Notes under the pieces: model-generated
What the model was told of the DNA's origin: nothing
The model's database searches: none
The model's input: only the letters and a program-made list of their open reading frames with translations
Position numbers and translations under genes: made by a program
Shown: positions 30,840 to 61,249 of the stretch, piece by piece
Layout of the letters: each line of letters starts with the position of its first letter
How positions within the stretch are numbered: the stretch's first letter is position 1
Source: an uncultured Clostridia bacterium
GTDB lineage: Bacteria > Bacillota > Clostridia > Oscillospirales > Ruminococcaceae
Direction: 5' to 3'
DNA: 64,000 bases
Assembly: GCA_947625335.1 (NCBI GenBank)
Contig: CANQNY010000001.1
Location: 3,924-67,923 of the forward strand

Positions 30840-30855
30840 CTGCTTAGATTAACGC

Positions 30856-30890: not shown

Positions 30891-30908
30891 AAAAAGGAGG
30901 TTTTCTCT

Positions 30909-31358
30909 ATGATTATTACAAAGGAAGAATTTCACGAAATGGGGTTTGAAGTTGAGGCAAAATACGAGAGTCTGCTTGAAAAATGCATTCTGCGCGCGGA
31001 ATACGTTTTAAACGGGCTGACAAACGGCGCGGCAAGCACAGCGGCTCTTTCGGGGACGGCTGCCGCGGATTTTGTAAAGCAGGCGGCGGCTTTTCAGACG
31101 AACGATATTTTAAAAGAGGAAATTGCTCTTGCAAAATCACAAGCGGAATCCTCGTCGAGCGAAACCTCGAAAAAAAGCGACGAGCGCGTTTCTATAGGGG
31201 ATTTCTCCTATTCTTCCGGAACATCGTCCTCGGAGTCGTCTAAAAGTTCTTCTAGTTCGAGCGAGGAGGAAATATCGCGCCTTGACACGGGAAGGACGAT
31301 TATAAGGCTTTTGCGCGCGGCGGGCTGTCTTTATACGGGCGCGGAGGTGAAAGAATGA
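30909..31358 (+). CDS. putative head-tail adaptor (gp15/gp8-like)
   Basis: Follows the capsid gene; helical N-terminus, ERVSIGDFSYS beta-hairpin, C-terminal LRAAGCLYTG. Confidence 0.7.
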   Translation: MIITKEEFHEMGFEVEAKYESLLEKCILRAEYVLNGLTNGAASTAALSGTAAADFVKQAAAFQTNDILKEEIALAKSQAESSSSETSKKSDERVSIGDFSYSSGTSSSESSKSSSSSSEEEISRLDTGRTIIRLLRAAGCLYTGAEVKE

Positions 31359-31693
31359 TAAACGTAAAACCCATTCCCGACGAGCTTTTGGGGGACGATA
31401 TTGTACTTATCACGCCGACGGGTTACGGCTCTTCAAGGGAAACGATTTACAACGTCCGCGTGGAAAAGCAAGCCGCGATAACCGACTATACCTCGTCCTC
31501 ACAGCGCGAAAACACAACTATTACCGTATGGTACGACTGTGAGAATTCTTACCCTGAGGCGGAGTTTCCCGTCGGGGCTAAGGTTGAATACGGCGGGGAG
31601 ATTTTTGAGATCGTGGAATCAAAGGTTTACAAAACCGACGTTCCTCATCACAAAAAATTCAAGGCAAGAAAAATTGCGGAGGTGAGAGAATGA
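31355..31693 (+). CDS. putative head-closure / minor capsid protein
   Basis: IP..LL.D.I, TIYNVRVE, TVWYD, GAKVEYGGE.FEI beta-rich pattern; ATGA-coupled. Confidence 0.65.
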   Translation: MINVKPIPDELLGDDIVLITPTGYGSSRETIYNVRVEKQAAITDYTSSSQRENTTITVWYDCENSYPEAEFPVGAKVEYGGEIFEIVESKVYKTDVPHHKKFKARKIAEVRE

Positions 31694-31851
31694 ACAAGAA
31701 AGAAACGCCCGAAAAGCTGAAAAATCTCGGCGCGCTTTCGTCGGACGACATATGCAGGATTTCAAAAGAACTTGCAAACGAGGTTCGGAAAGTCAACCGA
31801 AGAATTTGCTCGAAAATAAAAAAGAAGTCTGAACGGAGGGATAAATCATGA
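31690..31851 (+). CDS. 53-aa basic helical ORF at the position of the missing tail module
   Basis: MNKKETPEKLKNLGALSSDDICRISKELANEVRKVNRRICSKIKKKSERRDKS; GGAGGTG RBS; ATGA overlaps with both neighbours. Not in the supplied ORF track. Confidence 0.7.
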   Translation: MNKKETPEKLKNLGALSSDDICRISKELANEVRKVNRRICSKIKKKSERRDKS

Positions 31852-32189
31852 CTATTACGATTGACGAATCGGAATACGACGTCACGGAACTTAACGCCAA
31901 AAGGGAAATTCGTCAGACCAACATTCAATACAACACGCAGGGCGATATGCTTATCGATATGGTAAACAGAAAATACCTGCTGGAAGTGACGTTCGGGCTG
32001 CTTAGCGAGGAAAAAATGGCGGCGCTGCGAAAGTCCTCCGATAAAATCTTCGTTCCCGTGACGTTCAACTCCCCAGAGGGAGAAATTACCGAGGACTTTT
32101 TTATTTCGGACGAGCCTGCGCCGATTGTTACCGTGATAAACGGAGAAAGATTATACGGCGGCGTAAAGCTTACTTTGAAACAGAGGTGA
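31848..32189 (+). CDS. putative distal tail (Dit-like) protein
   Basis: 113 aa; NTQGDMLIDMVNRKYLLEVTFGLLS...VTF.SP.G; position directly before the hub gene. Confidence 0.6.
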   Translation: MTITIDESEYDVTELNAKREIRQTNIQYNTQGDMLIDMVNRKYLLEVTFGLLSEEKMAALRKSSDKIFVPVTFNSPEGEITEDFFISDEPAPIVTVINGERLYGGVKLTLKQR

Positions 32190-32193
32190 TATT

Positions 32194-33711
32194 ATGGTCG
32201 AAGTGTCCGACAATTTCAAAAAACTCGCGGTACAAAGCGGGCGTTATGTTTACTGTAAAATTATCGCGGGAAACACAACGTTTTTTGACGACAAAATTCT
32301 CGAATTCGATTTCGACGATATTTGCCACCCGGAATGGTATACGGTAGGCACGGCTTGCCCGAACAAGTTTACTTTTTCGGTGCTCTACAACGGGGAACTT
32401 TTGGTGGGCGACACGGTAAAGCCGTATATCAGTTTCGACAACTCGGAATGGTGTCCGCTGGGGGTTTTCTATGTAGCAAGAAGATATGTCCGCGGGAAAA
32501 AAGCGTCTATTACCTGCTATGACAAAATGTACTCTCTGGACGATGAATACATACCCTCGATACAAGCTCCCACAACGTATGACGCAATTCTGAGGGACGT
32601 GTGCTCTGCGGCGGGGCTTGCCTGCGAGGACTATGGGGCGGATTACATCGTAAACGAAATCCCCAAAGGACACACGCTGAGGGATATGATAGGTTATATT
32701 GCGGCGATAAACCACAGTTGTGCGAAACTTGACCGCAGCGAAAAACTGACGCTGAAAAAACAAACGAGTATTATTTATTACTGGCTGGAACTCGAAAACT
32801 GCATGGACTACAGCAGAAATATGGATTACTCGACGATAACCTGCCTGTCGTGCGACACGGGAAACGAAATTCTGGTATCGGGGGACGGAGCGCTGACCTC
32901 CACCATCGAGTTCTACAACCCGTTTATGACGCAGCAGGGACTGGACAATATGCTGGCGTCGCTGAGGCTTATTCAGTTCTATGGTGCGAAAATCACTATG
33001 CAGGGACTGCCGTTTCTGGAGGCGGGCGAACGCATATTTTTTATGGACGACCCCGCCTATTTGCACCCGATTTGGTTAAGCGAGATAAACTACCACTACG
33101 ACGGCGCGCTTACCGCGAAAGTTTATTCCCGAAACCGGAGTTATACCGACGCTGCCGTTCACAAAGAGGACCTGGACGCCGCGCTTGACGAAATTCGGGC
33201 GCAGCTTGGCAACGTCTGCATAAAGCAGACAAACGACAACGAGATTTCTCTCGGAAGTTCGCCCGTGACGGCGGCAAGCTTTGAATTCCTCGCGAAAGCC
33301 AGAAACACCTTCGCGCAGATAGACCTTAATTTTACCGTCAGCTCCGCGCCGGGTGTGACGCTTAACATCGACCTTTCCGTAAACGGAGAAAAAATTTCCC
33401 GAACGGCTTTGCATATCGCGGCAGAACAAAGCGAAATGCTGCACTATTACTACCTTGCGGACAACCTTCCGAAAGGCGCGAATAAAATCGAGGTTCGGAT
33501 AAGTATGTCGCAGGGAACGGCGATTATCCCCAAAAATCAGCTTATCGCAACGCTTGTCGGAAAGGGTTTGGGCGGAGGGAACAGCGGCAATGTAAACGAT
33601 AGGCTTACCGTTACCGATGAATTTCCGAAATATGACTATGTGCGAACGGATCTGGGGCTCGCGGGATTTGACGCTTACCCCGGCTTTGACGGCGCACAGG
33701 AAACGGAGTGA
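32194..33711 (+). CDS. putative baseplate hub / Tal-like tail protein
   Basis: VGTAC..K, W.PLG.FYV, ITCYDKM..LD, TLRDMIGYIA, QGLPFLEAGE; beta-sandwich-like C-terminus. Confidence 0.65.
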   Translation: MVEVSDNFKKLAVQSGRYVYCKIIAGNTTFFDDKILEFDFDDICHPEWYTVGTACPNKFTFSVLYNGELLVGDTVKPYISFDNSEWCPLGVFYVARRYVRGKKASITCYDKMYSLDDEYIPSIQAPTTYDAILRDVCSAAGLACEDYGADYIVNEIPKGHTLRDMIGYIAAINHSCAKLDRSEKLTLKKQTSIIYYWLELENCMDYSRNMDYSTITCLSCDTGNEILVSGDGALTSTIEFYNPFMTQQGLDNMLASLRLIQFYGAKITMQGLPFLEAGERIFFMDDPAYLHPIWLSEINYHYDGALTAKVYSRNRSYTDAAVHKEDLDAALDEIRAQLGNVCIKQTNDNEISLGSSPVTAASFEFLAKARNTFAQIDLNFTVSSAPGVTLNIDLSVNGEKISRTALHIAAEQSEMLHYYYLADNLPKGANKIEVRISMSQGTAIIPKNQLIATLVGKGLGGGNSGNVNDRLTVTDEFPKYDYVRTDLGLAGFDAYPGFDGAQETE

Positions 33712-33715
33712 CAAA

Positions 33716-35035
33716 ATGAAAGGAAAAGCAACGTTTATCCTGACGGATAAGTATACCAAAAAGCCCGTAAAACAAATTACGGAACACAACCTTGTGACAA
33801 AGGCGTTGGAAAAGGTATTATTCCCCCCGCCTATCACAAGAATAACAATGGGAACTTCAAACTTCGCGGACAACTACTTCCCTATCTGCAATAAACTTAT
33901 AGGCGGGATAGTCCTTTTGGGGAACACGCTACCCGAAAACGCGGAGGATTTTATGATCCCGCCCGACATCATACCCGTAGGCGCGGCAGGAAAAGAATAC
34001 ACCGGCACAAACCCCTGCCGAGGGACATTAAATATCTCCATGAGCGGTCCTATCGAAAACGGCTACATGCTGGTGTGGGACTTCGCTCCCGAAAAAGCAA
34101 ACGGCGTGATAAAATGCGTGGGACTTACCAACTTCTGCTATGGAAACGCCGCTTTTTTAAAGACAAACGAGCAAAACTGCGGCATATGTACCCCGCCAAT
34201 AAATATGGGACAGAATTTGGCGTCTATCCCGACGGTTATGTCCGTTTTGGGACGTTTTTACGGCAAGGCGGAAGGCACGCGGCTGTATTCCTACACATAT
34301 ACCTCAAATATACTCACGCTTTACGAAAGCGAAATAAGCGACCCGCGCAACATTAAAGTCGGCGACGCCATAAGCGACTTCAAGACGGCAAAAGTAGTTT
34401 CCGAAAAGGAGCTTGAACTTCCCGTGCAGCTTTCGTCCTCGTCTATGCACTTCTACTGCCGCGAGGACGGCTGTCTTTATCTGCTGGCGTATAACTATAC
34501 GTTCAATAAAGTGACCATCTATCATTTTACGCTCATGAAGATCGATCCCATGACGGGAAGGCTGCTTGATGAAAAGAATTTTGAGATTTCCGGCGAAAAA
34601 AGCTTTTCGGGATTTTCGTTCGCGATAAAACAGGGGAAAATCTATCTTTCGGGTTCGGGGAACTACGCAACGCTGTTTACTATCAATTTATCAAACTGCT
34701 CGATACTCGCCGAAAGAAGTCTTACCCACGCGGGAACATTTAATTTGTTCGAGTGGAACGGCTATATCATGGGAACGGAAATGCTTTCGGGGTATTATTA
34801 CAAGTTTTTCGCGGAATATGAAAATTACCCCATGCTGTGCGGAGGACCCGGAGCAGAAGTGACATGCGATCTTGTCCCGATACCGTATTCCTTAAGATAC
34901 AGCTATGACTCCACGAGAACGAATTTTTATCTCATGATGAGAACGGACTATCTTGCGACAATAAACAACCTTTCCGCGCCGCTTGAAAAGACCGACCGAC
35001 ACGCGCTGCAGATACGCTACGAGCTGACCTACTAA
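33716..35035 (+). CDS. putative tail fibre / receptor-binding baseplate protein
   Basis: N-terminal EHNLVT..., RG.LN...SG..ENGY..VWDF...ANG.I..V.LT seen in Firmicutes phage tail proteins; aromatic-rich, propeller-like middle. Confidence 0.6.
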   Translation: MKGKATFILTDKYTKKPVKQITEHNLVTKALEKVLFPPPITRITMGTSNFADNYFPICNKLIGGIVLLGNTLPENAEDFMIPPDIIPVGAAGKEYTGTNPCRGTLNISMSGPIENGYMLVWDFAPEKANGVIKCVGLTNFCYGNAAFLKTNEQNCGICTPPINMGQNLASIPTVMSVLGRFYGKAEGTRLYSYTYTSNILTLYESEISDPRNIKVGDAISDFKTAKVVSEKELELPVQLSSSSMHFYCREDGCLYLLAYNYTFNKVTIYHFTLMKIDPMTGRLLDEKNFEISGEKSFSGFSFAIKQGKIYLSGSGNYATLFTINLSNCSILAERSLTHAGTFNLFEWNGYIMGTEMLSGYYYKFFAEYENYPMLCGGPGAEVTCDLVPIPYSLRYSYDSTRTNFYLMMRTDYLATINNLSAPLEKTDRHALQIRYELTY

Positions 35036-42854: not shown

Positions 42855-44789
42855 TTAGATGAACGCGTAGTTCGATTTTCCGCTCTTCTTAACGGAGTAC
42901 ATCGCGTCGTCAGCCTTACCGATAAGATACTCAACACGGGTGTTGTAATCGTCCTGAATAACCGCGATACCGATTGAAACACTAACTGTCAAATGCTCTC
43001 CGATATCCGCGTCAAAGCCCGCGCCCAGCGTATCGATTATCTTCTGCGCGATAAGAGCAGGCTCGTTTGTTTCGGCGTCGCGCACCATAGCGATAAACTC
43101 GTCGCCGCCGTATCTTCCTGCAAAGCCCATATCGCCCACGGATTCCTTAATCGTTCTGGCAACGAATTTCAGCACCTGGTCGCCCGTCGCATGAGAATAA
43201 TTATCGTTGTAGTGCTTGAAATCATCAACGTCGATAAACAAAACAGCCATTTTGGTCTTGCGCATTTCGGAAAGCGAAATTTCGTTATCGATCTGAGTTT
43301 CAATCGTCTCACGGTTGTACAACTCGGTCAGAGCGTCGTAGCTTGCGCGCTCGGTAAGCTGCTGCTCGGACTTCTTTGCGCGATCGATATCAACCATAAC
43401 TCCGACAACCTTAAGCGGCTTGCCGTCCTTGTCCTTCAAGGTGGAAGTTCTCATCAAAACCCAGATGAAATCGCCGTAGATGTTCTTTATACGGTACTCA
43501 TTGCGCTCGAAATTAGTGCCCTTTTCGAGAGCATCAAGATCGTTTCTGTATCTGTCTGCGTCGTCGGGGTGAATTTTCGCCTTAAGCAGGAAACTGTCGC
43601 CGAAGTGATCCGAAGGCGGGCGATAGCTGAACTTTTTATTGAAGTTGTTGGAGAAAACAACCTCGTTGGTCTTGAAATTCCACTCGAAGATGATGTTATC
43701 CGACATATCCGAAATGGTCTTGTATCTGTCCTCGCTGACAACTATCTCATCAACAAGGTTATTGAACGCACGCGAAAGCTGTCCGTATTCGTTATTGCTG
43801 ATAGTGCCGATACGCGCCTCGTGATCGCCGCGGCGAACCTTTTCAAGAGTGTTCTCGATTATCTTAAGAGGCTTTGCAATAGCGTTCGACGCGATAATTG
43901 CGCCGACTATCGCGATAATAGCAATAAGTACGGAGGCAACCATAACCGGAGTCGCCGTGCTGCTGTAATACAAGCCGTTTACGGTGTCGTTGCAGCTTGC
44001 GATAGCGATAAGTCCGTTTTCGCCGCCCACTCTGACCATGGAATACAGGAACGGCGCACCCGACGAATCCTTATACGAAAAAACATTTGTCGCAACGCCC
44101 TCTTGAAGTCCGGGGATCTGCGAAGTTAACGACGAAGTGTAGCGTGACTCCAGATTATTGTAAAATCCCGAGCCGGCAGACCAGTTTCCGTTGGCGTCGG
44201 CAATGACCACCTGACCCTCAGACTTATTATCGGGGAGATCGAACTTGGTGTCGCTGAGAGCCTTGGAGATAAGAGAATTCGAGGTGGAAATGTTGTACGA
44301 AATGATAACAAGGCAACCATTCAGCTCTTTCTTGATGAACATAGTCTTATTACTAGCGTTGGCAATAATATCATCGAAGTACAGCATATCATCATCATAA
44401 TCCTTGTACTTCTCGAAATTATCAAACGTCCTGCCCTTGCCGTCGCCGGCGATAATTACACCCGTCGTATCATCAACAATTCGGATAGAGGTTATCATCA
44501 CGTTGTTTTCCTGGAATTTGGTGATGAAGTCTTCAACCTCCGCGGCAGACTTATTCGCCGTGGCGGTGTTCATGCGCGAATAGGACGTCAGCATGTTCAA
44601 ATTCGAGCGCGCCGTTCCGAGCATAGCGTTCAAACCGGAAACCTGATTGCTTGCCATGCTTTTGACTTCGTCCCGGTATGCCTGCACGGAATCGTTCTTG
44701 ACGAAATAATCGGTCAAGAACACCCTTGCCGCCATGGGAATTATCGCAAAGCAGATAGCCGCGATAAGTATAACAACCTTTATCTTCAT
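42855..44789 (-). CDS. membrane sensor diguanylate cyclase (Cache-like/HAMP/PAS/GGDEF)
   Basis: Two TM helices, HAMP (NEYGQLSRAFN), PAS (IHPDD), FIDVDDFK..ND...H..GD, GRYGGDEF. Confidence 0.92.
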   Translation of the reverse strand: MKIKVVILIAAICFAIIPMAARVFLTDYFVKNDSVQAYRDEVKSMASNQVSGLNAMLGTARSNLNMLTSYSRMNTATANKSAAEVEDFITKFQENNVMITSIRIVDDTTGVIIAGDGKGRTFDNFEKYKDYDDDMLYFDDIIANASNKTMFIKKELNGCLVIISYNISTSNSLISKALSDTKFDLPDNKSEGQVVIADANGNWSAGSGFYNNLESRYTSSLTSQIPGLQEGVATNVFSYKDSSGAPFLYSMVRVGGENGLIAIASCNDTVNGLYYSSTATPVMVASVLIAIIAIVGAIIASNAIAKPLKIIENTLEKVRRGDHEARIGTISNNEYGQLSRAFNNLVDEIVVSEDRYKTISDMSDNIIFEWNFKTNEVVFSNNFNKKFSYRPPSDHFGDSFLLKAKIHPDDADRYRNDLDALEKGTNFERNEYRIKNIYGDFIWVLMRTSTLKDKDGKPLKVVGVMVDIDRAKKSEQQLTERASYDALTELYNRETIETQIDNEISLSEMRKTKMAVLFIDVDDFKHYNDNYSHATGDQVLKFVARTIKESVGDMGFAGRYGGDEFIAMVRDAETNEPALIAQKIIDTLGAGFDADIGEHLTVSVSIGIAVIQDDYNTRVEYLIGKADDAMYSVKKSGKSNYAFI

Positions 44790-45060
44790 TAAATTCTCCC
44801 CGTTTCTGCTTTAAACTGACCCGAGCCGTAAATTCGGAGGGTTACATTTATTATATCACAAAAAAATCAAGATGTAAACACCCTTACAATATTATTAAGC
44901 TTTTTTTTAAATTTTTATGAATTTTTCACAAATTCCCAAATCGCATTTTGTGAAAGTTAATGTTCCAAAAAGAAAAAATAAATAAAGTTTGGCTTTGGGT
45001 ATTGAATAAAGGCGAAGATTATGTTATAATTAAAGTAACGTACCGTGAAGGAGAGAGATT

Positions 45061-46293
45061 ATGGGAAACGTTCTTAAAGGCTACAACTACAGGCTTGTGG
45101 ATAACCGCTCGTTTGATATTCCGTTGCCTCTGAAATACGTTTTGATGAAAGAGGACGGCGAGATTGCCGAATACGAGGTGTCCGCCGACGAGACGGTGAA
45201 CTATAAAATACTCACCAAATACAAAGAAGAAATGCTCACGCCCATTACAAGAAAGCTCGGCATTTCGGATATATATTATTTCTTCTCGTGCAGAGTTTTT
45301 CAGGACAAAACTCCGTTTACATGGGGAGAGCTTTCCTTGCTCGGAATGGAGAAATACAACGTTTTCGACATAGTCAAAAAGACCCGCGGCGTTACTCCTT
45401 ACGACAACTACTGGCTGAAGTTTGACGGGGACGACTGCGATTACGAAAAGGCGAAAAACGACTGGAACGAGCTGATGTATAAGCTGTCCTCGGAGGAGAG
45501 TACGAAAGCTCCCGAACAGGCGGTCGACAGAAGTACTGTAAAGGCAATTCTCGGTCAGCATAAGCTGGACTATGCGGCGCGCCTTGCCGAGGCTAATGCG
45601 GCGGCTACTTCTGCTGCGGAAACTGCGGCTGAACCCGCGCCCGAACCTGTTTCAGAGCCTACTACTTCAGGCGGGAAAATGAGCCAAGAGGATATTGAAA
45701 AAATGCTGGCGGCGGCTACTTCTGCTGCTGAAACTGCTGCCGAACCCGCGCCCGAGCCTCTTTCAGAGCCTACTACTTCAGGCGGGAAAATGAGCCAAGA
45801 GGATATTGAAAAAATGCTGGCGGCAGCTACTTCTGCTACGGAAACTGCTGCCGAATCTGCGCCCGAACCTGTTTCAGAACCTGCTACTTCTGGCGGGAAG
45901 ATGAGTCAAGAGGATATTGAAAAAATGCTTGCGGCGGCTAGTGCGGCGGCGGAAACTACGGCTGAGCCCACTCCCGAGCCCGTTTCAGAGCCTGCTACTT
46001 CAGGCGGGAAAATGAGCCAAGAGGACATTGAGAAAATGCTGGCGGCAGCTACTTCTGCTGCGGAAACTGCTGCCGAATCTGCTCCCGAACCTGTTTCAGA
46101 GCCTGCCACTTCTGGCGGGAAGATGAGTCAAGAGGATATTGAGAAAATGCTTGCGGCGGCTAGTGCGGCGGCGGAAACTGCGCCCGAACCCGCGCCCGAA
46201 CCTGTTTCCGAACCTGCTACTTCGGGCGGGAAGATGAGCCAGGAGGACATTGAGGCTCTTCTGAACGGAATGAAACAGGACGTTTCCGAATGA
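45061..46293 (+). CDS. hypothetical protein: HipA-N-like domain plus six 37-aa repeats carrying MSQEDIE(K/A)(M/L)L
   Basis: N-term RVF...L..LG...YN...I.KKT.GV...D.YW.KF; Ala/Pro/Glu-rich repeats. Confidence 0.8.
   Translation: MGNVLKGYNYRLVDNRSFDIPLPLKYVLMKEDGEIAEYEVSADETVNYKILTKYKEEMLTPITRKLGISDIYYFFSCRVFQDKTPFTWGELSLLGMEKYNVFDIVKKTRGVTPYDNYWLKFDGDDCDYEKAKNDWNELMYKLSSEESTKAPEQAVDRSTVKAILGQHKLDYAARLAEANAAATSAAETAAEPAPEPVSEPTTSGGKMSQEDIEKMLAAATSAAETAAEPAPEPLSEPTTSGGKMSQEDIEKMLAAATSATETAAESAPEPVSEPATSGGKMSQEDIEKMLAAASAAAETTAEPTPEPVSEPATSGGKMSQEDIEKMLAAATSAAETAAESAPEPVSEPATSGGKMSQEDIEKMLAAASAAAETAPEPAPEPVSEPATSGGKMSQEDIEALLNGMKQDVSE
45597..46263 (+). repeat. 111-bp in-frame tandem repeat, 6 copies
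   Basis: ATGAG(C/T)CA(A/G)GAG at 45679, 45790, 45901, 46012, 46123 and 46234. Confidence 0.95.
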
Positions 46294-46373: not shown

Positions 46374-47078
46374 TTGAAATTCAAACGCAAAAGCAAAGAG
46401 CTTGACGCCGCACCGGGGGCTCTTGCCACCGTACAACAACTTCTTGCCGAGGACACCGGTCAGCAGGTCATGGAGCAGATGTTTAAGTTTGTGGAAATGG
46501 AACATCTGTACGAATCGGCAATCCGCGAGGTAAAAACCAAGCTTGAGATCCTTGACAGCGAGTTCCGCACAAAATACTCCTATAACCCCATTCATCATAT
46601 CGAGGACCGCCTTAAATCCCCGCAGAGTATCCTTGAAAAGTTACAGAGAAAGGGCGTGCCGTTCAGCGTGCAGTCCGTTAAAGACAATCTTCAGGACGTT
46701 GCGGGCGTTAGGGTAATTTGCAACTACATCGAGGATATTTACACCGTCGCAGACCTGCTTACGGCGCAGGACGACGTTAATCTTATCAAACGGAAAGACT
46801 ATATAGACTCCCCGAAACCAAACGGCTACCGCAGTCTGCATCTGGTGATTGAAACTCCCGTTTACCTCTCGGACAAGAAAGAAATGGTAAACGTGGAAGT
46901 GCAAATCAGAACGATAGCTATGGATTTCTGGGCAAGCCTTGAACACGAGCTGAAATACAAGTCCGATACCGATGTTTCGGCGGAGCTTGCGTCCCAACTT
47001 CGCGACTGCGCGGAGACCATTGCGGCTACCGACAAGAAAATGCAGCAGATTTACAAGACTCTTAAAGAAATTGACTGA
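46374..47078 (+). CDS. small alarmone synthetase (RelA/SpoT domain, YwaC/YjbM-like)
   Basis: RLKSPQSI..K, DVAGVRVIC, KDY...PK.NGYRSLHL, VEVQIRT.AMDFWASLEH. Confidence 0.92.
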   Translation: MKFKRKSKELDAAPGALATVQQLLAEDTGQQVMEQMFKFVEMEHLYESAIREVKTKLEILDSEFRTKYSYNPIHHIEDRLKSPQSILEKLQRKGVPFSVQSVKDNLQDVAGVRVICNYIEDIYTVADLLTAQDDVNLIKRKDYIDSPKPNGYRSLHLVIETPVYLSDKKEMVNVEVQIRTIAMDFWASLEHELKYKSDTDVSAELASQLRDCAETIAATDKKMQQIYKTLKEID

Positions 47079-47111: not shown

Positions 47112-48482
47112 ATGAAAAAATTTGTTGCCGCGGCGTTGGCGGTGTGCGTTCTTGCGGCTGTAATCATTTTGGGTGCAACGTCAAAGCCTGAATTTGTATA
47201 CTATATCCGCGACGACGGCGGCGTAGAGGTGTGGTACCGCGGGGACAGCGAAAACGTGGTCGTTCCCGAAAAGTATCTCGGAAAGCCCGTCACTCACATC
47301 GGAAATGGGGCGTTTTCGCAAAAATTCAAGATTAAAAGCATAACCCTCCCTGACACCGTGACGCAAATCGGCGAAAGCGCGTTTTCAAACTGCGACAGTC
47401 TTGAAAGCGTAAATATCCCCGAGGGCGTTTCGGAGATACAGCCGTATACCTTTGAACACTGTATTAAACTGAACGGAATATTACTGTCGAATATCACGAA
47501 AATAGACAATTCCGCCTTTTCGGAGTGTAAAAAGCTTTGTATTACGGAATTCCCGGAGGGGCTTACATATATCGGCGATATGGCGTTTGCGGGATGTTCG
47601 GCTTTGACAGCGGCAATTTTGCCCGAAAGCGTCGAGCACCTCGGATCGTATGCGTTTGCGGAAAGCGGAATTGAAACGGCGAAACTGCCCGAAGGATCGG
47701 ATTTTTTCCCCGAGGGGTTGTTTTCCAACTGTGAAAAGCTGTCCGCGGTAAATATTCCGAACAGCGTTAATTTAATAGGCACAAATGCGTTTTCGGGCTG
47801 CACGAGTCTTAAAGAGATAAAGCTTCCCGAAAACATAAATTTAATAGAGCAAAACGTGTTTGAAAACTGCACAAGCCTTTCCGGCGTAAATTTCCCGAAC
47901 GCCCTCACTTCTATCGGCGACGGGGCATTTTCGGGCTGTACGGCTTTGAAAACTGTCGCTTTGCCCGAAAATCTCGAATTCCTCGGAGCGCAGGCATTCG
48001 CGGAAAGCGGCATTGAAACGCTGACGTTTTACGGAGGAATAAAGCAAATCCCCGAGAAGGCGTTTTACGGCTGCGACGACCTTATGAAAATCGAAATCCC
48101 CGCGGGAATTATCACAATAAACGCAAATGCGTTTGCAGACTGCGGCAATTTGTGTGATATTTTGTTCTCCGAAAGCGTTGCCTCAATAGAGGCAGGGGCT
48201 TTTTCCGGGTGCGGGAACCTTCGCTGCGTTACAATTCCGAGAAACGTTGTTTCAATAGGTCAAAGCGCGTTTTCGGGGTGCGGTTCTCTTGAAAGCGTTG
48301 TGTTGATGCGGGAAATCGGCAGCATTACGATAGAGGATTATGCGTTCGAGGGCTGTACAAATATCTCCGAGTTCATCATAAACGGTCCTGTGGAGGTGCG
48401 CGGGGAAAACGTTTTCAGCGGATTAAACAAAGCGACTTTGTTTGGCATAGAGCAGCAGATAATGAAAAAGCTTGCAAGATAG
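47112..48482 (+). CDS. BspA-type leucine-rich-repeat surface protein
   Basis: Signal/TM N-terminus; many IG..AF..C..L..I.IP LRR_5 repeats. Confidence 0.92.
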   Translation: MKKFVAAALAVCVLAAVIILGATSKPEFVYYIRDDGGVEVWYRGDSENVVVPEKYLGKPVTHIGNGAFSQKFKIKSITLPDTVTQIGESAFSNCDSLESVNIPEGVSEIQPYTFEHCIKLNGILLSNITKIDNSAFSECKKLCITEFPEGLTYIGDMAFAGCSALTAAILPESVEHLGSYAFAESGIETAKLPEGSDFFPEGLFSNCEKLSAVNIPNSVNLIGTNAFSGCTSLKEIKLPENINLIEQNVFENCTSLSGVNFPNALTSIGDGAFSGCTALKTVALPENLEFLGAQAFAESGIETLTFYGGIKQIPEKAFYGCDDLMKIEIPAGIITINANAFADCGNLCDILFSESVASIEAGAFSGCGNLRCVTIPRNVVSIGQSAFSGCGSLESVVLMREIGSITIEDYAFEGCTNISEFIINGPVEVRGENVFSGLNKATLFGIEQQIMKKLAR

Positions 48483-51728: not shown

Positions 51729-53000
51729 TCAGTCCTTTATCTCGTATTTTTCGCCGTCAATCTCAACGGTCGTTCCCACAAAAATCGGCGCGGCTTTCCC
51801 GCCCTGCACAGTCTTTTCCTCGCCGTTCGGGAGCGTACACCGCCAGTCGCTTTCTCCGTGATTTTTAAGCCCCCACAACGCGGGATTTACCTTGTTTCTG
51901 ACAACCTCCGCTTTGAGATTAACCTCGTCGTCAAACAACTTTGCTCCGTCAAAAAGCAGCATCGAGCTTTTCGCGCCGACAAGCGACAGCGGCTTTGAAT
52001 AGTGAGTGCCGCACGCGCAGATAAGCTTGCCCTCGTCGTCGGTTTCGACAGCGGAGAGAAAATTCTGTATACCGCACGGGCATGCGGTTATCTCCCCGCG
52101 AAGACGTTTTAAAAGGTCAAGCCACTGTTTTTCGATAAGGCGTTTTGACGGCTCGGAAAGACCCGTTGTAAATGAAAATTCAAAAGCCTCGCGGATATAA
52201 TCGGGCATAATGCGCCAGAATTTAATGATATTGTTGTGAACGCCGCGCACGGGGCGGTTGCTGTCGTCGTTGGGGTCGTACACAAACAACGGCTCGAACC
52301 CGTAGTGTCTGCGCTCAGCCTCCTCGGTAAGGCACACGCTTTTAAGCACCCTGCCGCCCTCCAGCGGGTCGCCGCGCAGCAGCAGCCTGAACAGCACAAC
52401 GGCAAGCGAATAGCGGTCGGTGTACTTATCGGGAGCTTTTTCGCCGCGGACAATTTCGGGAGCCATATAGCCCGGTTTTCCCGCAATGCCGAGATGTTCC
52501 CCGTAAGGCGCGATATTATCGCAGTCGCAAATAAGAACATCTCCGTCGCGCGGGCGAATGAAAAATCCGCCGTCGTTCATATCCTGATAACTGTTTCCGC
52601 TGTTGTGAAGTTCGCGGAACGCGGAAGTTATCCTTATAGCGGAATTTACCACCGAATACAGCCCCGACAGCTTTACCCGGGCGTTTAAAATATCCGAAAA
52701 CGGCTTGTATTCCTCAGGGATAATGTCCATAAGAAAGCCAAAGCTGTCGTCAACGGGAGCAGTAAGCAGACGCGGCATCAAAAAAGCCTCGTCAAAGCTT
52801 TTTTCTTCGGTTAAACGGCGCAGATTGTCGCGGAAAATATCGGGACGTTTCAGCTTTTTCGGGAAGTAGACTTTAAGAGCGTACTCCTTGCCCGAAAAAC
52901 GCGCCCTGTAAACCGTCCCCTGCCCGCCGGAGCCGAGAACCGCCGTGATTTCCGCGCTGCCGCCAAGCTCAAGAGGGACTTTGTCGCCAATCTTCAGCAT
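51729..53000 (-). CDS. Ser/Thr protein kinase of TerY-P type
   Basis: LGSGGQGTVY, ALKVY, YQDMND, CDCDN, YMAPE, D.YSLAV; C-terminal zinc ribbon and FHA-like tail. Confidence 0.88.
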   Translation of the reverse strand: MLKIGDKVPLELGGSAEITAVLGSGGQGTVYRARFSGKEYALKVYFPKKLKRPDIFRDNLRRLTEEKSFDEAFLMPRLLTAPVDDSFGFLMDIIPEEYKPFSDILNARVKLSGLYSVVNSAIRITSAFRELHNSGNSYQDMNDGGFFIRPRDGDVLICDCDNIAPYGEHLGIAGKPGYMAPEIVRGEKAPDKYTDRYSLAVVLFRLLLRGDPLEGGRVLKSVCLTEEAERRHYGFEPLFVYDPNDDSNRPVRGVHNNIIKFWRIMPDYIREAFEFSFTTGLSEPSKRLIEKQWLDLLKRLRGEITACPCGIQNFLSAVETDDEGKLICACGTHYSKPLSLVGAKSSMLLFDGAKLFDDEVNLKAEVVRNKVNPALWGLKNHGESDWRCTLPNGEEKTVQGGKAAPIFVGTTVEIDGEKYEIKD

Positions 53001-53350
53001 TAAAAGCCTCCTCCCGTAAGGGAATCGAATTTCTCCTCCGCGGAGGTCTCAGCGGCGTTTCCGCACCACTCGCAGACAGTTTCGTTTTCGCCGTTCCAAC
53101 AAGTTGTCTTTCCGCACTCGCTGCACTGGAAAAAGCCCTTTGCCCCGCAATACGGGCAGGAGGGGTAATCCGTCGTTACATAGACGTTTCCCGAAATCTC
53201 GGTGTCGCCGAATTTCTCGCGGGACGCCGTATGCTCCGACACCTTAAACGCCCATGTCGCGTACCACGCTTCGTCCTCGCGCTGTTCGGCGCGAATGCCG
53301 AAAAGTCCGTGATGCTCCTTGCATTTTGTAAGAATAACCGCTGCTTTCAT
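53000..53350 (-). CDS. TerY-C metal-binding domain protein
   Basis: C......FGIR.E, W.ATWAF, CPYCG..FFQC..CGK..CW...C.WCG. Confidence 0.82.
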   Translation of the reverse strand: MKAAVILTKCKEHHGLFGIRAEQREDEAWYATWAFKVSEHTASREKFGDTEISGNVYVTTDYPSCPYCGAKGFFQCSECGKTTCWNGENETVCEWCGNAAETSAEEKFDSLTGGGF

Positions 53351-53363
53351 TGTTTACCTCCAT

Positions 53364-54662
53364 TTATTCGTTATCCGCCCGGCGCAGCTTTTTGAGAATC
53401 TTAGCCGCCTCTTCATGACCGTTTTTCGCGGCAAGCGAAAAATAATGCTTTGCCTGCTCGTTATCCTTGGGAACATAAACTCCTTTGAGATACATAACCC
53501 CAAGATTGTATTGCGCGATATTAAGTCCCCCGTCGGCAGCCAGCTTAAACCACCGAAACGCCTCGGCAGGGTCTTTAGGAACGCCGCTGCCCGTATAAAG
53601 GCACTTTCCGTAGGAGCACTGCGCCTTTATATGCCCGACCTCCGCGGCGCGCCTGTAAAACATTGCCGCGCCCTCGGCGTCCTTTTCCGCAAGACAGCGG
53701 CGCGCGCTTTGATAAAGCTCCTCGCCGTCGTCGGGCAAAGGCTCGGGAGCCTCGGTTTCTTCGGGAAGTTCATCAGTCCCGCCCGTGTATTTTTTCCACT
53801 TTTTCGCAAGTTCGGGATTTTTTTCAACATGAACCCCGTTTTCATAACACAAAGCTATCATATCCGACGCGTCGGAACAACCCTTTTTCGCGGCTTTTAA
53901 AAAGCACTCGTAGGCTTTGTCCTCGTCAAGCTCGCAGGCAATGCCCTCGGCGTAGAAATAGCCTTTCATATACTCTGCCTGAGCCACGCCGTTTTCAGCG
54001 GCTCTTACAAACCACTCTCGCGCGCCCGCCACGTCCTGAACGCCGCCGCGCCCCTCTAAGCGATAACTTCCCATATAATACTCGGCTTCGCCATGGTCCT
54101 GCAATGCCGCGTTCTCAAACCAGTAAAGAGCCTTTTCATACTCGTGAATTCTGTCAAAATGCCGTCCGAGAGAATACTGCTCGGCGGGGTCGGTAATGTT
54201 CTTTTTGGACTCGGTCTCCGACGCAGGGAGAATTTCCGACTTCTTAAACGAAATTTCACACCCCACCGCGCACCCCACCGCCTCTACAGCCTCGGCGGCA
54301 ACGCGCCCTTTTATACCGATTTCATCGCGGAGGGACTTTATGCACCCCGCAGCCGCCGCGCACCGCACCTCGAACGGTTTTTCGCGGACGGCGTACAGCT
54401 TTTTTGCACAGCCGTCGTACAGCGTCACAAAGCAGAGCCGTCTTGCCTGAGACTCTTTCGGGAAAAAATCGGCGATAAGCGCGTCGGTTCGGCGAAAATC
54501 GAGCAGGGTTTCCGCGCCGAATTTTTCGGTAATATAACGCAAAATACCCTTCAAATCGCGGATAGGCTCGCCCTTTTTCGTGTGAACAGTCCTGCAATAG
54601 CCGCAGTAATCCTGTTTTGTTTCATCAAACGCCCTCCCGCAGCGTCCGCAGACCATTGCCAA
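53364..54662 (-). CDS. Sel1-repeat protein
   Basis: Repeated A.YWFE.AA.Q.H..A.Y..G and AQYNLG.MY..G..V..D...A motifs; N-terminal CxxC pair. Confidence 0.9.
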   Translation of the reverse strand: MAMVCGRCGRAFDETKQDYCGYCRTVHTKKGEPIRDLKGILRYITEKFGAETLLDFRRTDALIADFFPKESQARRLCFVTLYDGCAKKLYAVREKPFEVRCAAAAGCIKSLRDEIGIKGRVAAEAVEAVGCAVGCEISFKKSEILPASETESKKNITDPAEQYSLGRHFDRIHEYEKALYWFENAALQDHGEAEYYMGSYRLEGRGGVQDVAGAREWFVRAAENGVAQAEYMKGYFYAEGIACELDEDKAYECFLKAAKKGCSDASDMIALCYENGVHVEKNPELAKKWKKYTGGTDELPEETEAPEPLPDDGEELYQSARRCLAEKDAEGAAMFYRRAAEVGHIKAQCSYGKCLYTGSGVPKDPAEAFRWFKLAADGGLNIAQYNLGVMYLKGVYVPKDNEQAKHYFSLAAKNGHEEAAKILKKLRRADNE

Positions 54663-58062: not shown

Positions 58063-58890
58063 TTATTCCTTGGAATATATAGGCATGGCGTTTTCCACAG
58101 CCGTTTTGCCGAAACCGTCGTCCAACGCGATAATGTGAAGAGCCCGCGCTCCCAGGAACGGCTTTGCACACTCGCCGAACGCCGTAAACAACTTCTGCCT
58201 GTCGCCCTTGAAGTCTACAACCAGCAAATAGCCGTTCTCGCCGTTGAGTTTTATCCCGCGCAGCCAAATTCTGCTTACATTGTGATTTTGCCGCGCCGTA
58301 TCGCACAGCTTGTTTGAAAGCTCCATAGGGTAGGGGCTCGGCACGAACACCTCTACGGGCGTATCGCTGTTTATAACATGGTTTGCGTGACCCTGCGTCA
58401 TTATCTGCTTATGTTCGTACCATTTAAGCAACAGCGGACGCGTAATCACCATATTATCAGAAAAAGGATTAAGCGCAATGCCGCTGCAATTCCCAATGCC
58501 CTCTATAATGGAGGCAATGCTGTCAAAATCCATAGACACCGTATAAGGCGTAGTTTCGGGATTTTTCCACTTCTTGAAATCCTCTGTATCGGTAAACACG
58601 GGAATAAAATGTTCCTTCCCGCTTAAAAGCATCATAAACGAAACATTCGACTTCTCCGAAACGAAAAGCTCGCCGTTTTCGCGGCTTTCCGGCTCTTTGG
58701 AAAGGCTTACCGGGACCAGCAGCTCTGCCCGCATAACAAGCTCGTCCGCAAGCTCGTTCATAACGTCCCCGTATGCTTTTTTATCGGGAATATTCTTCCC
58801 ATCGGGAGAAATTGCCGCGCGGCGGTCAAAAAGCTCCCGAAGTTTGGGATTATGAATTTCTTCATTAAGTTTCAAATTGTTCTGAGGCAT
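58063..58890 (-). CDS. SseB-family protein (SseB plus SseB_C)
   Basis: AELLVPV, FIPVFTD..F.KW, GIALNPF; C-terminal domain with YLLVVDF.GD...F. Confidence 0.85.
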   Translation of the reverse strand: MPQNNLKLNEEIHNPKLRELFDRRAAISPDGKNIPDKKAYGDVMNELADELVMRAELLVPVSLSKEPESRENGELFVSEKSNVSFMMLLSGKEHFIPVFTDTEDFKKWKNPETTPYTVSMDFDSIASIIEGIGNCSGIALNPFSDNMVITRPLLLKWYEHKQIMTQGHANHVINSDTPVEVFVPSPYPMELSNKLCDTARQNHNVSRIWLRGIKLNGENGYLLVVDFKGDRQKLFTAFGECAKPFLGARALHIIALDDGFGKTAVENAMPIYSKE

Positions 58891-58905
58891 AATTTTCACC
58901 TTTCT

Positions 58906-59709
58906 TTACGTTTGCAAACCATCAAGCTTTATCGCGGCAACCGAAATATCGTCGCGGCTGCCAGCGCGCGAACGGGTTTTCAAATGTTCTCCCAAAGACG
59001 CCGCCGAGCCGTTTTCCACCGCCGTCAGCACTCTTTTTCCGAACCTTAAAAAATCGCTTTCGTTTTTAAAAGAATTTATCAATCCGTCGCTTGAAAGCAT
59101 TACCCCCGAATAGCCGCCCTCTTTGTAAAAATAACGGAAGTTCCCGATAGCGTCGTTATCGCACAGCGAAGTCGTGAGATTTCCCACAAGTTTCGCGTCC
59201 TCGGGCATCGGGAAAATCATCTCACCGTCCATCATCGCGCAAAAGCTGCCGTCGCCTATCTGAAGTCCGAAACAGCCTTTTTTCGTCATTCCCGCGACAA
59301 TCAAAGTCGCCCCGTACATAACCTCGTTCGCTATCCCGCCGTACTTCTCGATAATCGCCCTTTCGCGCTCGTCGGGCGGCATAAGGCTTATATGCGCGGC
59401 AATTTCGCTGTTCCACCCGCAGATAATATTCGCCGCAACGCGCCGCGCGGTATTAGCGGGGTTTTGCGGGAAAATATCGTCCAGACCGCCGTTTCTGTCG
59501 TGAAAATCGCAGATAGAGCGTATAGCAACGCGCGTCGCCATTTCGCTCCCCGCCGCGGAACGAAAATGTTTCTCACTTCCGTGACCATCCGACACCGCCG
59601 CAACCGCGAAATCCTCCGCTATGAAAAAACGCGCGCTGTCCTGGCAGACCTCGCCCGCCTCCTCGTGAGACGCGCCCCTGACCGACAACGCGCAGCCTTT
59701 AAAGCCCAT
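58906..59709 (-). CDS. PP2C-family phosphatase (TerY-P type)
   Basis: SVRGASH...CQD, AVSDGHGS, QIGDG, NLTTSLCD, SSDG, RDDIS. Confidence 0.9.
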   Translation of the reverse strand: MGFKGCALSVRGASHEEAGEVCQDSARFFIAEDFAVAAVSDGHGSEKHFRSAAGSEMATRVAIRSICDFHDRNGGLDDIFPQNPANTARRVAANIICGWNSEIAAHISLMPPDERERAIIEKYGGIANEVMYGATLIVAGMTKKGCFGLQIGDGSFCAMMDGEMIFPMPEDAKLVGNLTTSLCDNDAIGNFRYFYKEGGYSGVMLSSDGLINSFKNESDFLRFGKRVLTAVENGSAASLGEHLKTRSRAGSRDDISVAAIKLDGLQT

Positions 59710-60446: not shown

Positions 60447-60506
60447 AACAATGCCTCCTGTGCAAATTCATATATACTGTAATTATACCATATTTTTCTT
60501 AATATG

Positions 60507-61238: not shown

Positions 61239-61249
61239 AAAATCAACAA

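What the first reader, a model, noticed from the sequence alone, without database searches (positions are those of the whole stretch)
45061..46293. Protein with six tandem FliM-N-like (CheY-P-binding-type) peptides fused to a HipA-N-like domain
Seen: six exact 111-bp-period repeats, each with SGGKMSQEDIE(KM/AL)L in Ala/Pro/Glu-rich linkers; the last is MSQEDIEALL at the C-terminus. Established: LSQ(A/E)EIDALL is the FliM/FliY N-terminal peptide that binds phosphorylated CheY. Inference: a multivalent sponge or scaffold for phosphorylated receiver domains, joined to a domain resembling the N-terminal module of HipA-like kinases but with no kinase. This would be an undescribed signalling architecture; repeat number may be tunable.
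Basis: partly seen in the sequence, partly recalled or inferred. Interest (0 to 1): 0.68.

Follow-up and report, generated by a model that had tools for sequence, protein, structure and literature searches.

The report
HipS-like protein with tandem EIDAL-like helices
A real, conserved gene of uncultured gut Oscillospiraceae encodes an antitoxin-type (HipS/HipA-N-like) domain with no kinase, followed by 3-14 copies of a short helix that closely resembles the flagellar-switch peptide bound by the chemotaxis regulator CheY; the combination is undescribed and its partner is still unknown.

Summary
ORF 45061-46293 (+) encodes 410 aa with six in-register 111-bp units. The DNA copies are 79-95% identical, not exact. 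The peptide core SGGKMSQEDIE is invariant and differs only by synonymous changes.

The N-terminal domain has no Pfam, NCBIfam or PDB sequence match. Two AlphaFold models nevertheless retrieve HipA and HipS as top fold hits, though weakly (best E 0.035). A profile search links the domain to about 120-aa standalone proteins that are fused or adjacent to HipA_C-type kinases. No such kinase lies near this gene.

The family occurs in 78 species-level Oscillospiraceae gut MAGs, with 3-14 motif copies homogenised within each species. In this clade the gene sits between a divergent HAMP-PAS-GGDEF cyclase (67/72 loci) and a RelP-type alarmone synthetase (42/44). Deeper relatives lack this synteny.

The motif matches the FliM/FliY EIDAL pattern at every conserved position (MSQEDIEALLNG vs LSQAEIDALLNG). 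The pattern is absent from 860,000 other ORF residues. CheY-P binding is untested. The acidic positions are Ala in about a quarter of copies, and che/fli genes were seen only near some relatives.

Best reading: a domesticated HipS-like head carrying a multivalent docking array, with CheY~P or FlhG as the leading candidate ligands.

The parts
45002..45030 (+). Sigma-70-like promoter for the gene (TTGAAT-17-TATAAT with TG extension)
   Evidence: Consensus scan, 10/12 matches. Pattern match only; not shown to be functional.
45050..45055 (+). Ribosome-binding site GGAGAG, 5 nt upstream of the ATG
   Evidence: Read directly from the sequence.
45061..46293 (+). Complete CDS, 410 aa (called X here): HipS-like head, helical neck, and a disordered array of six helical motifs
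   Evidence: ORF list. Orthologues in 78 loci of species-representative MAGs. Purifying selection on the motif core.
45061..45126 (+). N-terminal peptide (residues 1-22) with many invariant residues (K6, Y10, R11, N15, F18, P21-L22) but low model confidence
   Evidence: Invariant columns in A1/A3. pLDDT below 50 for residues 1-15 in both models. Possibly a binding segment (inference).
45127..45504 (+). Globular domain (about residues 23-148) with a HipS / HipA N-subdomain-1-like fold; W118 is invariant across the wider family
   Evidence: AF2 pLDDT about 85-94. Foldseek top hits are HipA and HipS. Profile relatives are paired or fused with HipA_C-type kinases.
45529..45618 (+). Two neck helices including the conserved ILxQHKxD segment (residues 157-186), also present in repeat-less relatives
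   Evidence: Alignment A1; model helices H157-166 and H171-186; P0098/P0099 end after this segment.
45598..46253 (+). Tandem array: 111-bp period, 5.9 copies, no indels, 79-95% pairwise DNA identity
   Evidence: TRF; pairwise matrix.
45667..45708 (+). Motif copy 1, SGGKMSQEDIEKML
   Evidence: predicted helix from the Ser.
45778..45819 (+). Motif copy 2, SGGKMSQEDIEKML
45889..45930 (+). Motif copy 3, SGGKMSQEDIEKML
46000..46041 (+). Motif copy 4, SGGKMSQEDIEKML
46111..46152 (+). Motif copy 5, SGGKMSQEDIEKML
46222..46290 (+). Terminal motif copy plus conserved tail, SGGKMSQEDIEALLNGMKQDVSE; this is the copy closest to FliM LSQAEIDALLNG
   Evidence: It has the highest helix confidence of the array, pLDDT 84-86.
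42855..44789 (-). Divergently transcribed HAMP-PAS-GGDEF diguanylate cyclase; conserved neighbour
   Evidence: Pfam. Present upstream and divergent in 67 of 72 loci with enough upstream sequence. Median gap 293 nt.
46374..47078 (+). RelP/RelQ-type small alarmone synthetase; conserved downstream neighbour, probably co-transcribed. The start codon is uncertain; homology starts near 46464.
   Evidence: Pfam RelA_SpoT 6.6e-36. Best PDB match is 6EWZ at 8.8e-68. Present in 42 of 44 loci. No terminator-like site between the genes.

Best explanation
X is a cytoplasmic two-part protein. Its head is a domesticated HipS-like domain. HipS is the module that forms N-subdomain 1 of HipA kinases and acts as the kinase-blocking antitoxin in HipBST systems. 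In X the domain has lost any adjacent kinase. The tail is an intrinsically disordered Ala/Pro/Glu linker region carrying six copies here, and 3-14 in other species, of a short N-capped acidic amphipathic helix (SGGK-MSQ[ED]DI[EA][KA][LM][LF]). Each helix probably acts as a short linear docking motif, so the tail is a multivalent docking array that concentrates or sequesters several copies of one partner next to the head domain. Because the motif reproduces the FliM/FliY 'EIDAL' peptide position by position, the leading candidate ligands are the proteins that dock on that peptide. These are phosphorylated CheY-type receiver domains first and the MinD-like ATPase FlhG second. In the clade containing this window the gene is kept between a sensor diguanylate cyclase and a RelP alarmone synthetase and is probably co-transcribed with the latter. 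This suggests it acts in second-messenger and motility decisions. Shown: the gene, the repeats, selection on the core, the fold class of the head, the absence of a kinase, the synteny and the pattern match. Inferred: docking function, the identity of the ligand, and any link to c-di-GMP or (p)ppGpp.
For: The gene is real and conserved. There are 78 loci in species-representative Oscillospiraceae MAGs with N-domain identity of 47-95%. The core has only synonymous differences between copies.

Head domain. HipA and HipS are the top fold hits for two independent models (prob up to 0.97; TM normalised to HipS 0.52-0.60). A profile search finds 295 relatives. About 120-aa standalone proteins score E 1e-11 to 1e-6. 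These relatives are fused to a kinase with NPDRHFGN and APIFDNG motifs (P0184), overlap one, or occur as an HTH fusion next to one. The kinase profile hits CtkA at 1.6e-5 and HipT at 0.0085, and two homologues carry PF07804.

Tail. Every motif is predicted helical (pLDDT 70-86) between linkers with pLDDT below 50, and pTM is 0.38. Copy number is 3-14, with within-species homogenisation and conserved special first and last copies.

Motif identity. M0, S+1, I+5 and hydrophobic +8/+9 are invariant, and Q+2 and acidic +4/+6 predominate. These are the same positions as in LSQAEIDALLNG of FliM (PDB 8UMD_C). The pattern [LMIV]S[QE].[DE]I[DE].[LM]L has 0 hits outside X in about 860,000 ORF residues. 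NCBI's pipeline named one fragment 'FliN'. EIDAL binds CheY-P (PMC6946799) and FlhG (bioRxiv 10.1101/2022.04.21.489128).

Chemotaxis and flagellar genes exist in some carriers. MCP genes lie in the flanks of L003, L004, L059, L063 and L012. A flagellin gene lies 1 kb from the relative P0080.

Synteny. GGDEF is present in 67/72 loci and RelP in 42/44, with different outer flanks. There is no terminator before relP.
Against: No binding evidence of any kind exists. The motif match has no database-level statistical support. Pfam FliM is not hit. A PDB search with the peptide returns TAL repeats, GroEL and myosin light chain rather than FliM. The Hsp70 lid 'GRLSKEDIEKMV' is equally similar.

The acidic positions equivalent to FliM Glu10 and Asp12 are Ala in 22-30% of copies, for example MSEEAIAALL and MSPEAIAALL.

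The conserved SGGK prefix has no FliM counterpart.

No che/fli gene lies in the 64-kb window. No enrichment of motility genes is seen next to X. The linked genes are c-di-GMP and (p)ppGpp enzymes instead.

The GGDEF/RelP synteny is absent from deeper relatives, which sit next to Lon or citrate synthase. It may therefore be inherited gene order rather than functional coupling.

Foldseek E-values never reach 1e-3, and no Pfam Couple_hipA or HipA_N match exists.
Confidence: 0.4

Rival explanations
1. The array docks onto a partner unrelated to chemotaxis, most plausibly the products of the conserved neighbours. These are the RelP tetramer or the cytoplasmic PAS-GGDEF part of the cyclase. X would then be a scaffold or regulator that couples c-di-GMP and (p)ppGpp synthesis, and the likeness to EIDAL would be convergence of acidic amphipathic helices.
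For: Synteny is 67/72 and 42/44 across species whose outer flanks differ. The spacing to relP is short and conserved, with no terminator. RelP is a genuine housekeeping-type SAS. The window is rich in c-di-GMP enzymes. Unrelated helix starts resemble the motif.
Against: Deeper relatives with the same architecture are not next to GGDEF or SAS genes. A few species in the clade have lost one neighbour but keep X. No known RelP/RelQ or GGDEF partner uses such a peptide (own knowledge).
Confidence: 0.2
2. X is still an antitoxin-type inhibitor. The HipS-like head neutralises a HipT/HipA-like kinase encoded elsewhere in the genome. The repeat tail is a regulated, protease-sensitive or entropic appendage that sets its stability or reach.
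For: The head belongs to a family whose other members pair with HipA_C-type kinases. W118 is invariant in the whole family, and HipS uses a conserved Trp to block HipT (PMC10627512). One relative lies next to Lon. HipS-like domains fused to a second module are known, as in HipN (PMC8262856).
Against: No HipA-like kinase is found in the window or in 1.1 Mb of flanks from about 80 genomes. X is a single, vertically inherited chromosomal gene at a fixed position, unlike patchy toxin-antitoxin modules. This reading does not explain the strong selection on the helix core or the special first and last copies.
Confidence: 0.15
3. The tail has no specific ligand. The helices self-associate or bind the protein's own head, making X a self-assembling or condensate-forming scaffold or spacer.
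For: The architecture is multivalent and low-complexity, copy number is very variable (3-14), and repeats evolve in concert. The linkers are predicted disordered.
Against: The model gives no defined head-tail arrangement, with pTM 0.38. The strongly acidic helices are poor candidates for self-association. Repeat-less relatives exist, so the head works alone.
Confidence: 0.1

Closest known systems
HipS antitoxin of HipBST and N-subdomain 1 of HipA kinases (E. coli O127, Legionella; PDB 7AB3, 7VKB, 8EZR, 3TPD)
   Same: The fold class of residues about 23-148 is the same (top Foldseek hits). The size is about 100-125 aa. The sequence pattern is ...R.F....T...L..LGL..YN.Y.I...THG....D.YW.RF. Sequence relatives of X's head are split from, fused to, or HTH-fused next to HipA_C-type kinases, as HipS is to HipT.
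   Different: There is no Pfam, NCBIfam or PDB sequence-level match. No cognate kinase and no HipB lie nearby. X is vertically inherited at a fixed chromosomal site. It carries a 260-aa repeat tail that no described HipS has.
HipN (HipS-like domain + HIRAN) and HipL (kinase + HipS-like + HIRAN) of Gerdes et al. 2021 (PMC8262856)
   Same: These set a precedent for a HipS-like domain fused to a second, unrelated functional module.
   Different: The second module here is a tandem array of helical peptides rather than a DNA-end-binding HIRAN domain. HipN and HipL are always kinase-associated, and X is not.
N-terminal EIDAL peptide of FliM / FliY (CheY-P- and FlhG-binding)
   Same: The pattern is the same at all conserved positions: hydrophobic-S-Q-x-acidic-I-acidic-A-L-L-N-G. 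X's last copy is MSQEDIEALLNG and Salmonella FliM is LSQAEIDALLNG. Both are predicted N-capped amphipathic helices flanked by disorder.
   Different: X has 3-14 internal or C-terminal copies instead of one N-terminal copy. It has no CheC-like or SpoA (FliN) domain. An SGGK prefix is conserved. The acidic positions are often Ala. Binding is untested.
B. subtilis FliY as an architecture analogue (own knowledge; PMC12826062)
   Same: An EIDAL-type recruiting peptide is tethered by a flexible linker to a globular domain that acts on the recruited protein. In FliY that domain is the CheC-like CheY-P phosphatase.
   Different: X's globular domain is HipS-like with no known catalytic activity. X is not a C-ring component.

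Membership tests
HipS / HipA N-subdomain-1-like domain | Three-dimensional fold matching HipS or HipA N-subdomain 1 | tested here: met
   Two AF2 models were made (pLDDT 75, and about 90 for the domain). The first 14 Foldseek PDB hits, and 12 of the first 13, are HipA or HipS. Best E is 0.035, prob 0.97, and TM normalised to HipS is 0.52-0.60. The match is weak in absolute terms (no hit at or below 1e-3, rmsd about 5 A) but specific and reproducible.
HipS / HipA N-subdomain-1-like domain | Sequence match to curated models (Pfam Couple_hipA/HipA_N, NCBIfam) or to solved HipA/HipS sequences | tested here: not met
   No hit for X or for 66 family members. No PDB sequence hit with profiles A2 or A4.
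HipS / HipA N-subdomain-1-like domain | Homologues occur fused to or next to HipA_C-type kinases | tested here: met
   P0184 is this domain plus a kinase with NPDRHFGN. The same 90% cluster holds split 115-aa and 268-aa forms. L084 and L085 show overlapping kinase ORFs. The kinase profile hits CtkA at 1.6e-5 and HipT at 0.0085. PF07804 is recorded on two homologues. L. eligens has an HTH-HipS-like fusion next to the kinase.
HipBST/HipBA-type toxin-antitoxin module | Cognate HipA/HipT kinase gene in the same operon | tested here: not met
   The neighbours are GGDEF and RelP. tblastn with the kinase finds nothing in the window or in 88 X loci.
HipBST/HipBA-type toxin-antitoxin module | Neutralises kinase toxicity | not testable with these tools
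   Needs co-expression assays.
FliM/FliY EIDAL CheY-P-binding peptide | Sequence pattern hSQxEIDxLL forming an N-capped amphipathic helix | tested here: met
   Position frequencies come from 326 unique copies. The comparison is with FliM of PDB 8UMD_C. The motifs are predicted helical. There are zero background matches in 860,000 residues. Caveat: +4 and +6 are Ala in 22-30% of copies.
FliM/FliY EIDAL CheY-P-binding peptide | Single copy at the N-terminus of a C-ring protein (CheC-like and/or SpoA/FliN domain) | tested here: not met
   No FliM, CheC or FliMN_C Pfam match. The copies are internal or C-terminal and tandem.
FliM/FliY EIDAL CheY-P-binding peptide | Host genome encodes CheY and a flagellar switch | tested here: inconclusive
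   None is present in the 64-kb window. MCP genes lie in the flanks of five related loci, and flagellin lies near a distant relative. Whole genomes could not be scanned.
FliM/FliY EIDAL CheY-P-binding peptide | Binds phosphorylated CheY (or FlhG) | not testable with these tools
Needs AF-multimer or biochemistry.
toxSAS toxin-antitoxin pair (X as antitoxin of the downstream RelA_SpoT gene) | Downstream SAS belongs to a toxic SAS subfamily | tested here: not met
   The best PDB matches are the housekeeping small alarmone synthetases 6EWZ/6FGJ at 1e-67 and YwaC/YjbM. The SAS is 75-88% identical across species.
MucR regulator / FliN (names NCBI gave to fragments P0002 and P0039) | ROS_MUCR zinc finger or SpoA/FliN domain | tested here: not met
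   No such Pfam or NCBIfam match. The named proteins are partial X orthologues.

The most novel reading that the evidence does not exclude
X is a multivalent decoy of the flagellar switch. A domesticated toxin-antitoxin domain (HipS-like) carries up to 14 copies of the FliM/FliY EIDAL peptide. It titrates or scaffolds CheY~P (or FlhG) in the cytoplasm. It is co-regulated with a sensor diguanylate cyclase and a RelP alarmone synthetase, so chemotaxis output is damped when c-di-GMP and (p)ppGpp rise. Capacity is tuned between species by repeat number.
Probability: 0.22. Interest if true: 0.8.

Novelty: new variant of a known kind. Interest (0 to 1): 0.6.

Why it matters
If the helices bind CheY~P or FlhG, this would be the first soluble, multivalent mimic of the flagellar switch peptide. 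That would be a new way to buffer chemotaxis or flagellar-number signalling. It would also be an example of a toxin-antitoxin domain recruited into core signalling.

Even without that, the work defines three things:
- An unannotated protein family conserved in about 80 species of uncultured gut Oscillospiraceae.
- An unannotated HipS-like/HipA_C-like two-gene family on Firmicutes plasmids and phage contigs.
- A tightly conserved cyclase - X - RelP gene trio that may link two nucleotide second messengers.

It also explains recurring mis-annotations (FliN, MucR) and assembly breaks at this locus.

Tried and rejected
- **Curated-model and PDB sequence searches of the head domain.** Pfam, NCBIfam and PDB sequence searches found nothing.
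- **Exact look-ups.** Look-ups of X and of the cyclase in the contig collection found nothing on record.
- **Homologue search with the repeat region alone.** It returned only C-terminal fragments of X orthologues, not other protein families carrying the motif. These fragments are artefacts of N-gaps and internal Met starts in scaffolds.
- **PDB search with the 31-aa terminal peptide.** It gave TAL repeats, GroEL and myosin light chain, not FliM.
- **Riboswitch or other RNA element around the gene.** No Rfam hit.
- **Transcript evidence.** No RNA runs hold the stretch.
- **Within-species repeat-number variation from rabbit-gut runs.** Short-read contigs break inside the array, so the result is uninformative.
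- **X as antitoxin of a toxic SAS.** Rejected, because the SAS is RelP/RelQ-type.
- **Head-tail docking.** The full-length model gives only per-residue confidence and a low pTM, so docking could not be assessed.
- **Single-sequence match of the partner kinase to PDB.** It failed. A profile was needed.
Full report
**1. The observation**

The ORF at 45061-46293 (+) encodes 410 aa. It has a plausible extended -10 promoter at 45002-45030 and a GGAGAG ribosome-binding site.

Tandem Repeats Finder reports a 111-bp period, 5.9 copies, no indels and 85% matches over 45598-46253. The six units are in perfect register, 37 aa apart. They are only 79-95% identical at the DNA level, so 'exact' applies to the period and not to the sequence.

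The core SGGKMSQEDIE is identical in all six copies, although 7 of its 11 codon columns carry synonymous differences. In the linker, 9 of 23 columns change amino acid. This is the signature of purifying selection on the peptide itself. The last copy reads ...EALLNGMKQDVSE, so it is near the C-terminus and not at it.

**2. It is a real, conserved gene**

A homologue search with residues 1-178 found 30 proteins from Oscillospiraceae/Ruminococcaceae MAGs with the same layout. A scan of one genome per GTDB species returned 78 distinct loci, all from uncultured gut Clostridia of rabbit, mouse, chicken, deer and human. The closest is 95% identical, in a rabbit-gut MAG. Sequencing runs holding the window are rabbit gut metagenomes.

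Among complete, gap-free orthologues the number of motif copies is 3-14. Copies are homogenised within a species, for example MSQDDIAALF, MSEEAIAALL or LSPDEIAKLF. A distinct first copy (NN[KT]MSxDEIEALLxKSGL, absent from this window's subclade) and a distinct last copy (GGKMSQxDIEALLNGMKxDxxK) are conserved across species.

Many assemblies break or carry N-gaps inside the array. This produces truncated gene calls and short 'proteins' starting at internal Met residues. Two such fragments were named 'MucR family regulator' and 'FliN' by NCBI.

**3. The head domain**

Pfam, NCBIfam and PDB sequence searches are negative.

An AlphaFold model of residues 1-150 has pLDDT 75 and pTM 0.70. A full-length model with a deeper alignment gives the domain a pLDDT of about 85-94. 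Both retrieve E. coli and Shewanella HipA, and the HipS antitoxins of Legionella (8EZR_A, 7VKB_B), as essentially the only consistent fold matches. Best E is 0.035, probability is up to 0.97, and TM normalised to HipS is 0.52-0.60. The scores are modest and none reaches 1e-3.

An independent line agrees. An exhaustive profile search with the head domain found 295 proteins at E <= 1e-3. About 47 have the same architecture. A large set of 110-130-aa standalone proteins scores E 1e-11 to 1e-6 and has no Pfam match. The evidence that these relatives pair with kinases is as follows:
- One relative (P0184, 376 aa) is this domain fused to a kinase with the HipA catalytic signatures NPDRHFGN and APIFDNG.
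- Its 90% cluster contains split 115-aa and 268-aa versions.
- Short contigs show the small protein overlapping a kinase ORF.
- The kinase profile hits the HipA-like kinase CtkA (1.6e-5) and HipT (0.0085) in the PDB.
- Two kinase homologues carry PF07804 HipA_C.
- The two-gene module sits on Firmicutes plasmids and phage contigs, always annotated 'hypothetical'.
- In Lachnospira eligens the small domain is fused to an HTH protein upstream of the kinase.

This mirrors the HipS/HipT versus HipA relationship (PMC6581861, PMC8262856, PMC10627512). tblastn with the kinase finds nothing in the window or in 1.1 Mb of orthologous flanks.

W118 is the only invariant residue across the wider family. HipS uses a conserved Trp to block HipT (PMC10627512), but equivalence of the two Trp residues was not tested.

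Residues 1-22 are strongly conserved yet modelled with low confidence.

**4. The tail**

In the full-length model every motif is a helix starting at the Ser, with pLDDT 70-86. The terminal copy is the most confident. Linkers are below 50 and pTM is 0.38, so the model is a head with a flexible string of helices.

Across 326 unique copies, M(0), S(+1), I(+5) and hydrophobic +8/+9 are essentially invariant. SGG precedes the motif in about 76-89% of copies. Q(+2) occurs in about 75%. Position +4 is acidic in about 77% and +6 in about 70-77%, with Ala otherwise.

Salmonella FliM in PDB 8UMD begins MGDSILSQAEIDALLNGDSD. X's last copy is MSQEDIEALLNG against LSQAEIDALLNG, with 8 of 12 residues identical and the rest conservative. 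The conserved positions of the two motifs coincide.

The pattern [LMIV]S[QE].[DE]I[DE].[LM]L has no occurrence outside X orthologues in about 860,000 residues of six-frame ORFs from the related loci. It has none elsewhere in the window.

The EIDAL motif of FliM/FliY binds CheY-P (PMC6946799) and is also necessary and sufficient for FlhG binding (bioRxiv 10.1101/2022.04.21.489128; PMC12826062).

Cautions:
- Pfam FliM is not matched.
- A PDB search with the peptide returns TAL repeats, GroEL and myosin light chain.
- The Hsp70 lid helix start GRLSKEDIEKMV is as similar.
- Whole species carry Ala at the two acidic positions.

**5. Genomic context**

Upstream and divergent lies a HAMP-PAS-GGDEF cyclase (42855-44789). 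Downstream on the same strand lies a small alarmone synthetase (46374-47078). Its best solved relatives are the 6EWZ/6FGJ synthetases (about 1e-67) and YwaC/YjbM. It is therefore a housekeeping RelP/RelQ-type enzyme and not a toxic SAS.

Among orthologous loci with enough sequence, 67 of 72 have the cyclase and 42 of 44 the synthetase in these positions. The outer flanks differ between loci. The gaps are short and constant, with medians of 293 nt to the cyclase start and 184 nt to the conserved core of the synthetase. No terminator-like site separates X from relP, and no Rfam element is present.

The linkage is clade-specific, however. More distant relatives with the same head-plus-repeats architecture lie next to Lon, or divergent from citrate synthase with a metallophosphoesterase downstream. 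Repeat-less relatives also sit beside citrate synthase. A few species of the main clade have lost one neighbour.

**6. Chemotaxis genes**

The window contains none. The only receiver domains are an OmpR-type regulator and the N-terminus of a 2242-aa REC-PAS-GGDEF-EAL-PAS-GGDEF protein.

MCP genes occur in the flanks of L003/L004/L059 (directly after relP), L012 and L063. A flagellin gene lies 1 kb from the distant relative P0080. At least some carriers therefore have chemotaxis and flagella.

**7. Interpretation**

What is shown:
- a conserved, selected gene;
- a HipS-class head with no kinase;
- a disordered tail of 3-14 selected helices;
- a position-by-position match of those helices to the EIDAL peptide;
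- a clade-wide cyclase - X - RelP arrangement.

What is inferred: the helices are docking motifs, and the protein is a multivalent adaptor or sponge.

I rank CheY~P/FlhG-type ligands first, because the pattern match is specific and no other known bacterial peptide motif fits. I give the whole reading only about 0.4, and the specific CheY~P decoy model about 0.22.

The rivals are:
- a scaffold for the neighbouring RelP or cyclase (0.2);
- a trans-acting HipS-type kinase inhibitor with a regulatory tail (0.15);
- a ligand-free self-associating scaffold (0.1).

**8. Novelty**

HipS-like domains fused to a second module are known (HipN, HipL; PMC8262856), and EIDAL peptides are known. I did not find an orphan HipS-like domain carrying a tandem array of EIDAL-like helices in Pfam, NCBIfam or the literature searches run here. 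I class it as a new variant of known kinds, of moderate-to-high interest, with a clear set of decisive tests.

Noticed in passing
window 13235-19963 (-): A 2242-aa ORF with the Pfam domains REC, PAS, GGDEF, EAL, PAS and GGDEF. It is a giant composite c-di-GMP signalling protein with an N-terminal receiver 34% identical to E. coli CheY.
   Followed up: partly
window 9674-10936 (+), 7712-9557 (-): An HD-GYP-type (HD_5) phosphodiesterase lies next to a HisKA/HATPase kinase and an OmpR-type response regulator. Together with two GGDEF proteins, this makes the window unusually dense in c-di-GMP enzymes.
   Followed up: partly
P0100-P0205, P0184, P0217; L084, L085, L092 (L. eligens NC_012780.1 575075-576438): An unannotated two-gene family consisting of an about 120-aa HipS-like protein and an about 265-aa HipA_C/CtkA-like kinase. 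Fused (376 aa) and HTH-fused forms also occur. It is found on Firmicutes plasmids and human-gut phage contigs, where every copy is labelled 'hypothetical'. It is probably a new HipBST-like toxin-antitoxin or defence family.
   Followed up: partly
L003 9800-9960, L005 9790-9900 and about 20 other loci: Assemblies break or carry N-gaps inside the repeat array. This yields truncated X proteins and spurious 48-114-aa 'proteins' that start at an internal MSQEDIEK. NCBI named two such fragments 'MucR family transcriptional regulator' and 'flagellar motor switch protein FliN'.
   Followed up: yes
L083 (CAVIFG010000096.1): A contig carrying an X orthologue and RelP is filed under an 'Escherichia coli' MAG. 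This is almost certainly bin contamination.
   Followed up: no
window 27945-35035 (+): An SPP1-type phage portal gene is followed by several large ORFs with no Pfam match (505 and 472 aa). This may be a prophage remnant.
   Followed up: no
window 51729-54662 (-) and 58063-61885 (-): A Hanks-type kinase lies next to a Sel1-repeat protein. Further on is a cluster of SseB-like, PP2C phosphatase, VWA, AAA_21 ATPase and SUKH-1 genes. Functions are unclear.
   Followed up: no
window 47112-48482 (+): A BspA-type leucine-rich-repeat protein lies immediately after relP. LRR_5 genes occupy the same position in L001, and an LRR-like lipoprotein does so in L009.
   Followed up: partly
window 45061-45126 (residues 1-22 of X): The N-terminal peptide MGxVLKxNRYRLVDNxSFELPLP is nearly invariant across species, yet it is modelled as disordered. 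It may fold only on binding a partner.
   Followed up: no
L003 11061-13094, L004, L059: In one genus a methyl-accepting chemotaxis protein gene lies directly downstream of relP on the opposite strand, and a single-domain Hpt protein lies about 8 kb away.
   Followed up: partly
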